In this document: piece after piece, positions 320 to 33,165 of the stretch
How the letters are laid out: every line of letters starts with the position of its first letter
Numbering within the stretch: the stretch's first letter is position 1
Translations under genes and position numbers: made by a program
IMG/VR virus record: IMGVR_UViG_3300045911_000155
Location: 16,561 to 80,560 of that record
Origin: a virus
DNA: 64,000 nt
Strand: one strand, 5' to 3'
Notes under the pieces: model-generated
What the model saw: only the letters and a program-made list of their open reading frames with translations
The model's database searches: none
What the model was told of the DNA's origin: nothing

Positions 320-673
320 CTATTTGGTTTCGACCGGCACATCGGCCAGCAAGTCCAAGTACTTTTGCGGCACCATCGCCGGGTTGAGTACGATGGTCCG
401 GTTCGCAAACATCAACGTGCCTTTGCGCGCCGTCAGCGTGATCGGATGCTTCTTCGCCCATTCCGGGTCGTCATCATAGAAGCCGTCCCAATCGTCGTCC
501 ACGCCTTGCACCGTGATCCGGGCTTCGTCTTTGCGATAGGCGTTTTGTTTGATGCCGACGCGAACTACCTTGCCGATCCGAAGAGCGGCGCACCGGCCTA
601 ATGCGTGACCGTAGACGATGATCGCGCCCGGCTCAATCGGCTGTCCCATCTTGTCTTTGAGTGGTAGTTCCAT
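320..673 (-). CDS. Hypothetical phage protein
   Basis: 117 aa ORF with coding-like composition, downstream of the tRNA operon on the same strand. Confidence 0.7.
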   Translation of the reverse strand: MELPLKDKMGQPIEPGAIIVYGHALGRCAALRIGKVVRVGIKQNAYRKDEARITVQGVDDDWDGFYDDDPEWAKKHPITLTARKGTLMFANRTIVLNPAMVPQKYLDLLADVPVETK

Positions 674-693
674 TGATCCATTCTACGACGAAC

Positions 694-883
694 TGGTGGG
701 ATAGCCGGGACTTGAACCCGGACAATGTTTTAGCATTGCGACTTCAGGATACATTGGATCGGTTTGGCCGATCCCTACCCGCTTCCCTAGCGACCCTTAC
801 TCAGAGCCGGTTGGTGCATCTGGAACCCTACATCGCGCCCACGCTCCGTTTTTCGTGCGCTCTGTCCGTTGAGCTACTATCCC
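694..883 (-). ncRNA. 190-nt tRNA-like RNA with a large structured insert
   Basis: Acceptor GGGATAG/CTATCCC-A-CCA, D arm GCTC/GAGC, T arm CCGGG-TTCAAGT-CCCGG; no canonical anticodon loop and an insert of about 115 nt. Confidence 0.75.
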
Positions 884-891
884 AAATTCTT

Positions 892-980
892 TGGTGGCGG
901 AAAGGGGACTCGAACCCCTACGGTATTGCTACCACATGACTCTCATTCATGCGCGGCTACCAAGATTACGCCATTCCGCC
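892..980 (-). tRNA. tRNA-Leu(GAG)
   Basis: GGCGGAA/TTCCGCC acceptor, CATGA-ATGAGAG-TCATG anticodon arm, long variable arm, encoded CCA. Confidence 0.9.
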
Positions 981-987
981 AAAGTGT

Positions 988-1074
988 TGGTCGCGGGAGT
1001 GGGACTCGAACCCACACGACATTTCTGCCACATGCTTCTGAGACATGCGTGGCTACCAATTACACCATCCCGCG
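988..1074 (-). tRNA. tRNA-Leu(CAG)
   Basis: CATGT-CTCAGAA-GCATG anticodon arm, type II variable arm, CCA. Confidence 0.92.
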
Positions 1075-1252: not shown

Positions 1253-1352
1253 ATTTGTGGAAGCCTTTCACTTCACTTGACCATTCTGGATCGCCAGTAT
1301 GATTACCCCGCCGATGAACGTTTCACTAGTACCGTGCATCGGAACATCGATT

Positions 1353-2020: not shown

Positions 2021-2109
2021 TGGCAACGGATAGCGGGATTTGAACCCGCAGTGGCTTTTTAGGCCGACTGTTTTTGGACAGTTGTGTTTACCATTTCACG
2101 ATAACCGTT
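2021..2109 (-). tRNA. Atypical type II tRNA-like gene (8-bp acceptor, G73, abnormal anticodon loop)
   Basis: AACGGTTA/TATCCGTT-G-CCA, GCGGG-TTCAAAT-CCCGC T arm, ACTG-TCCAAAAA-CAGT, variable arm GGC/GCC. Confidence 0.65.
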
Positions 2110-2132
2110 ATCCGTCCGGCTGTGACACGATT

Positions 2133-2209
2133 TGGTCGGGAAGGCGGGAATCGAACCCGCTCGATGTCCTGTCCCCCAGACAGGCGGCTCACCTTTAGCC
2201 CACTTCCCG
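2133..2209 (-). tRNA. tRNA-Pro(GGG)
   Basis: CCTGT-CTGGGGG-ACAGG anticodon arm, CCA. Confidence 0.9.
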
Positions 2210-3625: not shown

Positions 3626-4105
3626 ATGTCTTGGGTTGAATCAGAATACGCAAATTTGATGTCGTTGACGGAGTACAACAGTCAGCGGCGCGTGGTCATC
3701 ATGCGCGGAATCTCCGGGTGTGGAAAAAGCACGTACACGCGCACCCATTTCCCCGGTGCGAAAGTGTACAGCGCCGATCACTACTTCGAGCGAAATGGCA
3801 CGTACCAGTTCGACCCGACGAAACTCAAGAACGCCCATGAAGACTGCTTTCGGAAATTCCAACAAGGATTGATGAAGGGCGAACCGCTGATCGTCATTGA
3901 CAACACCAATACCCGGAAGTGGGAAATGCAGCGCTACTATGACGCGGCGGTCAAGGCTGGCTACGATGTCAGCGTCGTCCGGCTGGTCTGCGACCCGGCG
4001 AAGGCGGCGGCGCGCAACGTGCATCAGGTTCCGGCGGACAAGGTGGAACAGATGGCGTCGCGGTTTGAACCGTGGCCCGGTGAACAATTGGTCCGTACCA
4101 CTTGA
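3626..4105 (+). CDS. AAA_33 / N4BP2-like P-loop (polynucleotide) kinase
   Basis: MRGISGCGKST Walker A, SADHYF, IVIDNTN, RNVH motifs; TAAATA late promoter at 3601; start may be 3659. Confidence 0.85.
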   Translation: MSWVESEYANLMSLTEYNSQRRVVIMRGISGCGKSTYTRTHFPGAKVYSADHYFERNGTYQFDPTKLKNAHEDCFRKFQQGLMKGEPLIVIDNTNTRKWEMQRYYDAAVKAGYDVSVVRLVCDPAKAAARNVHQVPADKVEQMASRFEPWPGEQLVRTT

Positions 4106-31717: not shown

Positions 31718-31743
31718 CATAGATGTCCCGTGGTATACTCAAG

Positions 31744-33165
31744 ATGATGTCATTTCGACAATTCCTATTTGAAAGCGCGAAGGCCGAAGAAGCCTTGAAC
31801 GCGGTACGCAATGCGCTCATCGGTTCGAAGTATGAGCAAGACGTGTACCTTGTAGGCGGGGCCGTTCGCGATATGCAAATGGGCTTGCCGGTCAAGGACT
31901 TAGACCTTGTGGTGGACAACCACGGTCTTGAGGGTGGCATCGAATGTGCGACTTTCTTGGCGAAGGCGCTTGGCGTTTTCCGCCCGGATTCAAACCCGGT
32001 GATCTTCCCGCGATTCGGCACTGCGAAGCTGACGTTGAAGAGCGGGTTCGACGTGGAGTTCGTCGCGCCGCGCAAAGAGAAGTACGACGCCAACAGCCGG
32101 AAGCCGGTTGTGTCTGCCGGTACGCTCGAAGACGATGCGTTCCGCCGCGACTTCACGATCAATTCCCTGTTCATGCGCCTGTCGAATTCCGAACTCCGGG
32201 ATCTGACCGGGCGCGGTCTGGCCGATTTGAAGCGCAAGACCATCCAAACGACCAGCGACGCCACCTACATCTTCAGCGAAGATCCGTTGCGCATGTTGCG
32301 CGCCGTCCGGTTCGCAATCAAGTACGACTTCGAATTGCCGCTGGCACTCATCAAGGCAATCAAGGTGAATGCCCGGCGGCTTCAGACGATCAGCAAGGAA
32401 CGCATTCAGGACGAACTGAACAAGATCCTTGTGCTGAAGACGCCATCGCGCGCGATCCGCCTGTTCAAGATTACCGGGTTGCTGAAAGAGTTCATGCCGG
32501 AACTGCAAGCGCTGTCCGGCGTCACTCAGAACGCCTATCACAAGCACGACGCTTTCGACCACACGCTTGATGTGCTGGACAATGCGCCGCCGGATCTGAC
32601 TGTCCGGCTTGCCGCGCTGTTCCACGACATCGGCAAGGCCGCGACCCGCACCGACGACGGTGGAAAGGTTCGTTTCCTTGGTCACGCCAATGTCGGTGCC
32701 GAAATCGCTGTCGAAGTCATGAAGCGGTTGAAGTACTCGAACGACGACACGGAGAAGATCCGCAAGATCGTGTTTCATCACATGGACATGAAGTTCGCTG
32801 GTGACGATCTGGCGACGCTGAAGGACAAGAGCCTTCGGAAGCTCATCTTCCGTGTTGCCGACAAACTGGACCCGCTGTTGAGCCTGATGCATGCCGACAA
32901 CATCAGCCATGCGGAGCACGCCAATATGCCGAATCAGATCAACCTCATCCGGCAACGCATCAAGGATTGGGACATCGAATCCATCCTGAACACCACCAGT
33001 GTTCTGGACGGCAACGAAATCGCCGCCTTGGGCGCGAAGGGTCCGCTGATCGGCAAGATCAAAGGTCGCATTCTGGACAAGGTTCTGGAGAATCCCTCTT
33101 TCTCGAAGAAGGACGCCACTCTGATGGCACAGAGCATGATCCGTGATGCCGCCGGAAAGAAGTAA
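31744..33165 (+). CDS. cca: Class II CCA-adding tRNA nucleotidyltransferase with HD domain
   Basis: VGGAVRD..DLD, YDANSRKP loop, RRDFTIN, EDPLRMLR, FHDIGK. Confidence 0.92.
   Translation: MMSFRQFLFESAKAEEALNAVRNALIGSKYEQDVYLVGGAVRDMQMGLPVKDLDLVVDNHGLEGGIECATFLAKALGVFRPDSNPVIFPRFGTAKLTLKSGFDVEFVAPRKEKYDANSRKPVVSAGTLEDDAFRRDFTINSLFMRLSNSELRDLTGRGLADLKRKTIQTTSDATYIFSEDPLRMLRAVRFAIKYDFELPLALIKAIKVNARRLQTISKERIQDELNKILVLKTPSRAIRLFKITGLLKEFMPELQALSGVTQNAYHKHDAFDHTLDVLDNAPPDLTVRLAALFHDIGKAATRTDDGGKVRFLGHANVGAEIAVEVMKRLKYSNDDTEKIRKIVFHHMDMKFAGDDLATLKDKSLRKLIFRVADKLDPLLSLMHADNISHAEHANMPNQINLIRQRIKDWDIESILNTTSVLDGNEIAALGAKGPLIGKIKGRILDKVLENPSFSKKDATLMAQSMIRDAAGKK

What the first reader, a model, noticed from the sequence alone, without database searches (positions are those of the whole stretch)
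694..883. 190-nt tRNA scaffold carrying a large structured cargo domain
Seen: the acceptor, D and T arms and CCA are perfect, but the anticodon arm is CACG-AAAAACGGAG-CGTG (no U33, 10-nt loop). The variable region is about 115 nt, with helices GCGAT-G-TAGGGT/ATCCTG-AA-GTCGC, GGATCGG/CCGATCC and AATG/CATT. It has no G3-U70 (so not tmRNA) and is short for a group I intron. Inference: a natural tRNA-scaffolded ncRNA (decoy, aptamer or processed small RNA) rather than a decayed tRNA.
Basis: seen in the sequence. Interest (0 to 1): 0.75.

Follow-up and report, generated by a model that had tools for sequence, protein, structure and literature searches.

The report
Oversized tRNA-shaped RNA gene in phage
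A T4-like phage ends one of its tRNA operons with a 190-base gene that keeps a tRNA's ends and elbow but has no working anticodon loop and carries about 100 extra, almost unchanging bases, so it is probably a non-decoding tRNA-like RNA like those long known, and never explained, in phages T4 and T5.

Summary
Window 883..694 (minus strand) has a perfect 7-bp acceptor stem, D arm, T arm, all the tRNA core nucleotides and an encoded ACCA. It lies 8 nt after tRNA-Leu(GAG), as the last RNA gene of a Pro/Leu tRNA operon in a T4-like phage contig.

Standard ARAGORN and Rfam do not call it. It is not a tmRNA, a group I intron or a Y RNA. No single internal deletion restores a canonical anticodon arm, so a simple intron is unlikely.

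The only relative in IMG/VR is 97.4% identical. The adjacent gene has dS of about 0.59, yet the 89-nt insert core differs at only 2 positions. The insert is therefore under strong purifying selection and is not decay.

Its helices are not supported beyond that: the fold z-score is -1.2, there is no covariation, and 2 of 5 substitutions break proposed pairs.

Best reading: a tRNA-derived, non-decoding stable RNA that is processed like a tRNA, with the insert as the working part. Its function is unknown; a decoy or binder for a tRNA-recognising factor is inference.

The kind is already known: T5 RNA1/RNA2, T4 RNAC, and the Lak megaphage tRNA "introns". Earlier notes of this scan describe similar tRNA-framed RNAs in other phages. 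This one shares no insert or frame sequence with anything I could search. I class it as a new member of a known, uncharacterised kind.

The parts
694..883 (-). Whole 190-nt tRNA-shaped RNA gene (RNA position p = 884 - window coordinate)
   Evidence: Full-length covariance-model matches occur only here and in G001/L002.
877..883 (-). Acceptor stem, 5' strand (RNA 1-7, GGGAUAG)
   Evidence: 7 of 7 Watson-Crick pairs with RNA 180-186.
859..874 (-). D arm (RNA 10-25): GCUC, loop AACGGACA, GAGC
   Evidence: In IMG/VR this D-arm sequence type occurs mostly in tRNA-Arg genes.
840..857 (-). Hairpin A (RNA 27-44): 4-bp stem CACG/CGUG, 10-nt loop AAAAACGGAG, no U33. This is an anticodon-arm relic.
   Evidence: It aligns to the anticodon arm of the phage's tRNA-Ile(UAU) and resembles the arm of its tRNA-Pro(CGG).
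738..836 (-). 99-nt inserted domain (RNA 48-146), closed by helix 48-59/134-146
   Evidence: It has 2 substitutions in the 89-nt core versus L002. G56>A breaks pair 56-137.
791..809 (-). Hairpin B (RNA 75-93), loop GAGUA; predicted only
   Evidence: Pair probabilities 0.8-0.9; no variation to test it.
773..796 (-). G-tract run GGG-N6-GGG-N4-GGG-N2-GGG (RNA 88-111); overlaps hairpins B and C
   Evidence: One of only 3 such motifs on both strands of the 80.5-kb record. It is invariant in all three haplotypes.
756..774 (-). Hairpin C (RNA 110-128): GGAUCGG, loop CCAAA, CCGAUCC
   Evidence: Pair probability near 1.0. In the X11 haplotype A125>G turns U113-A125 into U-G, so pairing is kept.
723..738 (-). 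Hairpin V (RNA 146-161): CAAUG, loop CUAAAA, CAUUG, then U before the T stem. Resembles a class II variable arm.
   Evidence: U160>G in L002 breaks pair 147-160.
705..721 (-). T arm (RNA 163-179): CCGGG, loop UUCAAGU, CCCGG
   Evidence: The loop reads UUCGAUU in L002.
694..704 (-). Acceptor 3' strand CUAUCCC, discriminator A, encoded CCA
   Evidence: The discriminator is G in the wastewater haplotype X11.
892..980 (-). tRNA-Leu(GAG), immediately upstream with an 8-nt spacer; same operon
   Evidence: No promoter-like site was found between it and the element.
320..673 (-). 117-aa gene starting 20 nt after the CCA; no terminator lies between
   Evidence: Its homologs in other phages also sit just after a tRNA.

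Best explanation
This is a tRNA-derived RNA gene that no longer decodes. It is co-transcribed as the last RNA of the phage's Pro/Leu tRNA operon.

Its intact acceptor stem, D arm, T arm, elbow nucleotides and encoded CCA should let the cell's tRNA-processing enzymes (RNase P, 3' trimming, CCA repair) cut it out and keep it stable, as they do a tRNA. It cannot read codons. The only anticodon-arm-like hairpin has a 4-bp stem and a 10-nt loop without U33, and about 100 extra nucleotides are grafted into the core next to a class II-type variable hairpin.

The grafted domain is the selected, working part. Most likely it is a sequence-specific binding surface for a protein or RNA partner, presented on a tRNA body. 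This could be a decoy or inhibitor for a host factor that recognises tRNAs, in a phage that also carries other tRNA mimics and its own CCA-adding enzyme.

Shown: the anatomy, the operon position, the strong sequence conservation, and the absence of a canonical spliced product. Inferred: processing, stability, non-decoding in vivo, and the binding or decoy role.
For: - Anatomy and tRNA core nucleotides are all present. ARAGORN in default mode and Rfam tRNA do not accept it.
- Operon context: it lies 8 nt after tRNA-Leu(GAG)-CCA, with no promoter or terminator around it.
- Conservation against the only homolog, L002: element 5/190 differences (97.4%), insert core 2/89. The adjacent gene is 86.7% identical with pS 0.41 and dS 0.59, and spacers over 20 nt are 82-85% identical. 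P(at most 2 of 89) is about 5e-5 at the spacer rate and far smaller at the synonymous rate. Such uniform conservation also excludes protein-coding constraint on either strand.
- A third haplotype (X11, wastewater) differs only at A125>G, which keeps the pair as U-G, and at the discriminator A>G.
- No single internal deletion of 20 nt or more yields a 5-bp stem with a 7-nt loop carrying U33 and R37: 0 solutions, against 0.1 to 1.5 expected by chance.
- Two other non-decoding tRNA-like genes in the same operon are conserved to a similar degree, at 98.9% and 98.7%.
- The phage encodes a CCA-adding enzyme with an HD domain.
- Precedent for the kind: T5 RNA1/RNA2 are annotated 'tRNA-like stable RNA with unknown functions' and T4 RNAC/RNAD lie at the end of the T4 tRNA cluster. 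T4 RNAC and RNAD are expressed, with unknown roles (PMC3014915, PMC9697503).
- Phage tRNAs can counter defences that cut tRNA variable loops (PMC13096335).
Against: - There is no RNA-level evidence that the 190-nt species exists, is processed or is stable.
- Only three near-identical haplotypes are known, so no covariation supports any insert helix, and two substitutions break proposed pairs.
- The insert's predicted folding energy is ordinary.
- No partner is known. I found no antisense target in the 80.5-kb record (longest match 12 nt, E = 0.7).
- The high local identity spans a block of RNA genes (window 674-1074), so a recent recombination patch cannot be fully excluded. Divergence does resume 14 nt into the next gene.
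- The decoy role is analogy only.
Confidence: 0.6

Rival explanations
1. It is an intron-containing tRNA. The extra 96-118 nt are removed after transcription, by an unknown self-splicing or protein-dependent route such as a nuclease plus the phage's RNA ligase or kinase, to give a working tRNA. This is how Lak megaphage oversized tRNAs were read.
For:
- Lak megaphage tRNAs carry highly conserved 'enigmatic introns' (PMC6784885).
- The phage has a P-loop kinase-like gene and a CCA/HD enzyme.
Against: - ARAGORN's product has a C-C mismatch in the anticodon stem, A33 and U37.
- An exhaustive search of single excisions finds no canonical anticodon arm.
- There is no group I or other ribozyme match in Rfam at E up to 10, and the insert is too short for group I.
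- An intron need not be invariant along its whole length, as this insert is.
Confidence: 0.12
2. It is a cis-acting leader for the downstream 117-aa gene. The tRNA-like body serves as a processing signal that defines the mRNA 5' end, and the insert regulates that gene's expression.
For: - The gene starts 20 nt after the CCA with no terminator between.
- Homologs of this gene in many phages sit 20-60 nt after an ordinary tRNA: Arg in L018, Trp in L079/L078/L081, Pro in L064, Ser in L052/L055.
Against: - In the relatives an ordinary tRNA does the same job, so the 100-nt insert is not needed for it.
- The insert is far more conserved than the gene it would regulate.
Confidence: 0.1
3. It is a dead tRNA gene disrupted by an insertion. 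It looks conserved only because the two phages exchanged this patch recently.
For: - Only close haplotypes exist.
- Flanking tRNA-Leu(GAG) and the short spacers are 100% identical too.
- 2 of 5 substitutions break predicted pairs.
Against: - All tRNA core nucleotides and all 16 scaffold base pairs are intact.
- Divergence resumes within 14-24 nt on the gene side (659, 649) and in the next larger spacer (84%), so the patch would have to coincide exactly with the RNA genes.
- Three haplotypes from mat, lake and wastewater samples all keep it.
Confidence: 0.06
4. It is a chargeable RNA that acts on the ribosome, as a minimal tmRNA-like or otherwise non-canonical translation factor. It has a short frame GCA CCA ACC GGC UCU GAG UAA (RNA 67-87) whose stop codon lies in a hairpin loop.
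For: - It has an intact acceptor, T arm, elbow and CCA, plus A73 and A15-U48, which I recall as tRNA-Leu identity features.
- The mini-frame begins with GCA and ends in the loop of hairpin B.
Against: - There is G3-C70 rather than G3-U70. ARAGORN's tmRNA search finds nothing even at a lowered threshold, and the Rfam tmRNA hits lie on the neighbouring tRNA.
- It has a full D arm and no pseudoknots.
- The discriminator varies between A and G among haplotypes, which argues against a fixed aminoacylation identity.
- A 6-codon frame is expected by chance.
Confidence: 0.04

Closest known systems
Phage T5 RNA1 (144 nt) and RNA2 (125 nt), annotated 'tRNA-like stable RNA with unknown functions' (NC_005859 30501-30644 and 32959-33083)
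   Same: They are genes inside a phage tRNA cluster. RNA1 keeps the acceptor stem, D arm, a variable-arm-type hairpin followed by GU, and the T arm, and carries a long helix with extra sequence where the anticodon arm should be. Function is unknown.
   Different: I saw no sequence similarity, though I ran no formal search or alignment against T5. T5 RNA1 has a Leu-type D arm, no separate anticodon-like hairpin, a smaller insert (about 55 nt) and no encoded CCA. The element here has six helices around the core, a 99-nt insert and an encoded CCA.
Phage T4 RNAC (species 1, 139 nt) and RNAD (species 2, 119 nt)
   Same: Both come from a T4-type phage (gp23 capsid) and occupy the last positions of a tRNA cluster. 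RNAC has the same T stem CCGGG/CCCGG, an acceptor-like stem, a long central hairpin and a second hairpin just before the T arm. They are expressed RNAs of unknown role.
   Different: The covariance model of this element scores RNAC at 14.7 bits, no better than ordinary T4 tRNAs at 13.5-22.7. RNAC lacks a D arm, and its acceptor has U-U mismatches. A shared 10-mer with RNAD (CUGAGUAAGG) is not collinear and is weakly significant (16 of 500 shuffles).
'Enigmatic introns' in tRNAs of Lak megaphages (Devoto et al. 2019, PMC6784885)
   Same: They are oversized phage tRNA genes whose inserted sequence is almost identical across cohorts. They match no Rfam family, and no splicing has been shown.
   Different: Those were called as tRNAs with an assignable anticodon once the insert is removed. 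Here no excision gives a canonical anticodon arm. The phage group and host are unrelated.
tmRNA (tRNA-like domain plus a large insert)
   Same: Acceptor, T arm and CCA frame a large internal domain.
   Different: It has no G3-U70, no tag frame of the usual kind, no pseudoknots and a full D arm. It is not detected by ARAGORN or Rfam.
Engineered 'tRNA scaffold' for recombinant RNA
   Same: The logic is the same: a tRNA body gives processing and nuclease resistance to a foreign RNA domain.
   Different: That design is artificial and replaces the anticodon stem. This element is natural and keeps an anticodon-like hairpin as well.

Membership tests
Canonical tRNA (Rfam RF00005 / ARAGORN) | Cloverleaf with a 5-bp anticodon stem, a 7-nt loop with U33 and R37, and total length of about 72-95 nt | tested here: not met
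   There is no RF00005 match at the gathering score or at E up to 10, and no default ARAGORN call. The hairpin has 4 bp and a 10-nt loop without U33.
Intron-containing tRNA | Removing one internal segment gives a canonical anticodon arm and a normal variable region | tested here: not met
   0 solutions over all excisions of 20 nt or more, even allowing 4 of 5 stem pairs. ARAGORN -i's His(AUG) product has a stem mismatch, A33 and U37.
Intron-containing tRNA | A spliced form is present in RNA | tested here: inconclusive
   The runs laid are contigs of DNA or probably DNA. None shows a joint inside the element, which says nothing about RNA.
Group I intron in a tRNA | Group I core (P3-P9) detectable, with length of about 200 nt or more | tested here: not met
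   No Rfam intron match at E up to 10 in window 600-950. The insert is only 96-118 nt.
tmRNA | G3-U70 pair, no anticodon or D stem, tag reading frame, pseudoknots | tested here: not met
   It has G3-C70 and a full D arm. ARAGORN's tmRNA search is empty at 80% threshold. The Rfam tmRNA hits fall on the neighbouring tRNA-Leu or are sub-threshold.
YrlA / Y RNA | Ro-binding end helix with a tRNA-like module at the distal end | tested here: not met
   The only YrlA hit (14.6 bits against a gathering score of 69, E = 3) straddles two genes. Here the RNA ends form the acceptor stem.
T4 RNAC family | Sequence and structure homology to T4 rnaC | tested here: not met
   Model R1 scores rnaC at 14.7 bits, within the range of ordinary T4 tRNAs. 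Local alignment matches only the T arm. No RNAC-derived model was built, so the reciprocal test was not run.
T4 RNAC family | tRNA-like RNA gene at the 3' end of a T4-type phage tRNA cluster | tested here: met
   It is the last RNA gene of the Pro/Leu array. The phage has a gp23 capsid at 473 bits. In T4, rnaD and rnaC follow tRNA-Arg.
Phage tRNA-like stable RNAs with an insert (T5 RNA1 type; a kind, not a homology family) | Acceptor, D and T arms are kept, extra helical domain(s) are grafted into the core, and a variable-arm hairpin precedes the T stem | tested here: met
   Compared by folding and inspection.
Phage tRNA-like stable RNAs with an insert (T5 RNA1 type) | Accumulates as a stable, processed small RNA | not testable with these tools
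   No raw RNA reads of an infected host are available.

The most novel reading that the evidence does not exclude
The operon encodes a set of at least three conserved, non-decoding tRNA mimics: this element, the 8-bp-acceptor cloverleaf with a 6-nt loop, and a Pro-type mimic. They would serve as an anti-defence or translation-control module.

In this element the invariant 99-nt domain would be a dedicated effector displayed on a tRNA body. It might be an inhibitor or sponge of a host tRNA-targeting immune nuclease. It might also be a switch, given that it contains one of only three G-quadruplex-type motifs in the record. If so, it would give a first functional handle on the class of phage tRNA-like stable RNAs, which has been unexplained since T4 species 1 RNA.
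Probability: 0.15. Interest if true: 0.8.

Novelty: new member of a known kind. Interest (0 to 1): 0.45.

Why it matters
Phage tRNA clusters have been known since the 1970s to encode tRNA-like stable RNAs (T4 RNAC/RNAD, T5 RNA1/RNA2) whose roles are still unknown. Phage tRNA loci are now recognised as counter-defence loci. This element is a clear case for that class: a complete tRNA frame, a demonstrably non-canonical decoding arm, and an insert under very strong purifying selection in an environmental T4-like phage found in mat, lake and wastewater samples. That adds evidence that such RNAs are functional rather than junk or simple introns. It also shows that tRNA finders and Rfam miss them. 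On its own it does not reveal the function.

Tried and rejected
- **Rfam.** Searched at gathering score over the whole window and at E up to 10 on 600-950. Only weak or spurious hits appeared: a mascRNA T arm, YrlA straddling two genes, and tmRNA on the neighbouring tRNA.
- **ARAGORN tmRNA mode** at lowered threshold found nothing.
- **Homolog hunts.**
  - The neighbour protein retrieved 21 loci in IMG/VR and 47 in JGI metagenomes. blastn, ARAGORN and my own scan of these found the element only in L002.
  - A gapped D-arm-to-T-arm pattern returned only tandem tRNA pairs plus L026, which is the L002 contig.
  - One 25-mer of the window's 3' frame (T loop to CCA) found nothing in IMG/VR; L002 differs in that T loop. 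Four 19-23-mers of frame and insert found only the L002 contig.
  - Two insert 20-mers found nothing in 185,579 prokaryote genomes.
  - Model R1, searched over 22 related phage records, gave full-length hits only in the window's own record and G001.
- **Laying public runs.**
  - All four runs are contigs and probably DNA. They bridge the element unspliced and show no joint inside it. This says nothing about RNA splicing.
  - In the RNA-labelled wastewater run X16, the only near-identical pieces cover 631-904. The lack of cover elsewhere is not evidence of anything.
- **Antisense targets** in the 80.5-kb record: longest match 12 nt, E = 0.7.
- **Homology of the insert to T4 rnaD.** The shared motifs CUGAGUAAGG and GGGUCGCUA are not collinear, and 16 of 500 shuffles score as well. 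I treat this as probable chance.
- **Origin as a fusion of two tRNA genes.** The 5' part is closest to tRNA-Ile(UAU) and tRNA-Pro(CGG), the 3' part to the 8-bp-acceptor tRNA-like gene. This is suggestive, but the short shared words are within chance expectation, so I do not claim it.
- **Downstream 117-aa protein.** No Pfam family; PHROG 2596, of unknown function. The AlphaFold model is confident (pLDDT 88) and is a small beta-barrel, with no PDB match at E of 0.001 or better. It gives no functional link to the RNA.

Full report
**What is there.** On the minus strand, window 883..694 reads as a 190-nt RNA. RNA position p equals 884 minus the window coordinate.
- The acceptor stem has 7 Watson-Crick pairs (1-7/180-186, with G3-C70).
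- U8-A9 is followed by a 4-bp D stem with loop AACGGACA, which contains G18 G19.
- The T arm is CCGGG-UUCAAGU-CCCGG, followed by A73 and an encoded CCA.
- The nucleotides that build the tRNA elbow and core are all present: U8, A14, A15 with U48, U54 U55 C56, A58, G53-C61.

Between the D arm and the T arm lie 137 nt instead of about 22-45:
- hairpin A (27-44): CACG/CGUG with the 10-nt loop AAAAACGGAG and no U33;
- a long-range helix, 48-59 with 134-146, closing a 99-nt domain that holds hairpin B (75-93) and hairpin C (110-128);
- hairpin V (146-161, loop CUAAAA), which ends one nucleotide before the T stem.

**Context.**
- The window is part of an 80.5-kb IMG/VR virus record, about 47% complete.
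- It encodes a T4-type major capsid protein (Pfam Gp23, 473 bits) and a CCA-adding enzyme with an HD domain.
- In transcription order the array is Pro(CGG), Pro(UGG), Pro(GGG), an odd cloverleaf with an 8-bp acceptor and a 6-nt loop, Pro(CGG), Leu(UAG), Leu(CAA) twice, Leu(CAG), Leu(GAG), then this element. All encode CCA.
- The element starts 8 nt after the CCA of Leu(GAG). A 117-aa gene starts 20 nt after the element's own CCA.
- No promoter-like or terminator-like site separates them on that strand, so co-transcription is the simplest reading.

**It is not one of the known things.**
- Default ARAGORN and Rfam (gathering score, and E up to 10 on 600-950) give no tRNA, tmRNA, intron, ribozyme, riboswitch or Y-RNA call for it. 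ARAGORN's tmRNA mode is empty even at a lowered threshold.
- With introns allowed, ARAGORN proposes tRNA-His(AUG) with a 96-nt intron. That product has a C-C mismatch in the anticodon stem, A33 and U37.
- I enumerated every single internal excision of 20 nt or more. I asked for an anticodon arm directly after position 26 with at least 4 of 5 stem pairs, a 7-nt loop with U33 and R37, and a normal or class II variable length. There were no solutions. Shuffled inserts give 0.1 (strict) to 1.5 (relaxed) on average.
- A simple intron in an otherwise normal tRNA is therefore unlikely.

**Relatives.**
- The neighbouring protein retrieved 21 IMG/VR loci and 47 metagenome loci. Only one, L002 from a 224-kb phage contig, carries the element, at 97.4% identity.
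- Exact 19-25-mers from frame and insert found only that contig in IMG/VR. Two insert 20-mers found nothing in 185,579 prokaryote genomes.
- A covariance model of the element (R1), searched over the 22 related phage records, gave full-length hits only in the two carriers. Ordinary tRNAs matched the frame with the insert deleted.
- Public runs show the stretch in hot-spring or microbial-mat, lake and wastewater samples.
- Laying four runs gave a third haplotype, X11. It has A125>G, which converts U113-A125 to U-G in hairpin C, and A187>G, the discriminator. The lake contig carries the L002 haplotype.

**Selection.** Between the window and L002:

| Region | Identity or differences |
|---|---|
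| Element | 5 of 190 differ |
| 89-nt insert core | 2 differ |
| Spacers over 20 nt | 82-85% identical |
| Downstream gene | 86.7% identical, pS 0.41, dS 0.59, dN/dS 0.07 |

At the spacer rate the chance of at most 2 differences in 89 nt is about 5e-5. At the synonymous rate it is vanishingly small. Divergence resumes 14-24 nt into the downstream gene. The insert is thus under purifying selection about as strong as on the best-kept tRNAs of the array, at nearly every position. That also rules out a protein-coding constraint on either strand.

**What is not supported.**
- The insert's secondary structure is not supported. Its folding energy is ordinary (z = -1.18, with 21 of 200 shuffles as good; whole RNA z = -1.70).
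- With so little variation there is no covariation at all. Two of the five L002 substitutions break proposed pairs (G56>A in 56-137, U160>G in 147-160).
- The placement of the insert is ambiguous.
- The phage's own class II-like tRNA-Ile(UAU) aligns its anticodon arm to hairpin A and its variable-arm stem to the long helix.
  - tRNA-Leu bodies from T4 and from L018 align their variable arm to hairpin V and their anticodon stem to the long helix. The insert then replaces the anticodon loop, and hairpin A is an extra.
- The frame looks chimeric. The 5' part is closest to tRNA-Ile(UAU) and tRNA-Pro(CGG), and hairpin A's loop keeps CGG. The 3' part is closest to the 8-bp-acceptor tRNA-like gene, including its CUAAAA(A) loop. 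It is clearly tRNA-derived, but I cannot reconstruct how.

**Comparison with what is known.**
- T4 ends its tRNA cluster with tRNA-Arg, rnaD and rnaC. rnaC folds into an acceptor-like stem, a long central hairpin, a second hairpin and a T arm with the same CCGGG/CCCGG stem. Both are expressed RNAs whose roles remain unknown (PMC3014915, PMC9697503).
- T5 annotates RNA1 and RNA2 as 'tRNA-like stable RNA with unknown functions' within its tRNA region. RNA1 has an acceptor, a D arm, a long helix with extra sequence, a variable-arm hairpin, GU and a T arm. This is the closest architecture to the element.
- Lak megaphages have tRNAs with 'enigmatic', nearly invariant introns (PMC6784885).
- None of these shows specific homology. 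R1 scores T4 rnaC at 14.7 bits, no better than ordinary T4 tRNAs.
- Earlier notes of this scan (unchecked AI notes) report many phages with tRNA-framed RNAs carrying variable inserts. I found no shared frame or insert with anything I could search, and this phage has a single copy.

**Most likely mechanism.**
- The intact tRNA frame and CCA recruit tRNA processing and give stability (inferred).
- The decoding arm is disabled (shown by anatomy).
- The invariant insert is the functional surface (shown to be selected; its function is inferred).
- Three observations bear on the role. The same operon holds two other conserved non-decoding tRNA mimics. The phage carries a CCA/HD enzyme. Host defences are known that cut tRNAs, including variable loops, and that phage tRNAs counteract (PMC13096335).
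- From these, a decoy or inhibitor for a tRNA-recognising factor is my leading guess. It is analogy only.
- One unexplained detail: RNA 88-111 is a GGG-N6-GGG-N4-GGG-N2-GGG run. It is one of three such motifs on both strands of the record and is invariant in all haplotypes. It would compete with hairpins B and C.

**Verdict.** This is a real, selected, non-canonical tRNA-shaped RNA gene. It is a new, lineage-restricted member of a known but uncharacterised kind. Its function is unproven.

Noticed in passing
window 2021-2109 (-): tRNA-like gene with an 8-bp acceptor stem (one U-U), a long variable arm with loop CUAAAAA and a 6-nt anticodon loop CCAAAA. ARAGORN calls it 'tRNA-??? (aa)'. It is 98.9% identical in L002, and its 3' half is the closest match to the 3' part of the element.
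   Followed up: partly
G000:C1:15910-16001 (-), just left of the window (L023); also L079:1361-1451: tRNA-Ile(UAU) genes of 91-92 nt with a paired long variable arm, a class II-like body that is unusual for Ile. They occur in this phage, in L002 and in a distant relative. This is the best ordinary-tRNA match to the element's frame (32.5 bits).
   Followed up: partly
window 320-673 (-); L018, L052, L055, L064, L078, L079, L081: The 117-aa gene family downstream of the element almost always sits 20-60 nt after a tRNA in other phages: Arg(UCU), Ser, Pro, Trp. It has no Pfam family and falls in PHROG 2596, of unknown function. The AlphaFold model is confident (pLDDT 88) and is a small beta-barrel with no PDB match.
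   Followed up: partly
window 773-796 (-): Canonical G-quadruplex-type motif inside the insert. It is one of only three on both strands of the 80.5-kb record and overlaps two predicted hairpins.
   Followed up: partly
L041 (T4) 2054-2172 (-) versus window 788-805 (-): T4 rnaD shares CUGAGUAAGG (in a hairpin loop in both) and GGGUCGCUA with the insert, but in a different order. 16 of 500 shuffles score as well, so this is probably chance.
   Followed up: yes
window 31723-33165 (+) and 3626-4105 (+): A CCA-adding enzyme (PolyA_pol head, RNA-binding domain and HD domain) and a P-loop AAA_33 kinase-like protein. This points to a tRNA-repair capacity in a phage whose tRNA genes all encode CCA.
   Followed up: partly
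window 1253-1352 and 2458-2760 versus L002: One inter-tRNA spacer (31% identity) and the operon leader (56%) are essentially unalignable between the two phages, while the tRNA genes stay at 89-100%. This gives a useful internal measure of how fast unconstrained sequence turns over here.
   Followed up: no
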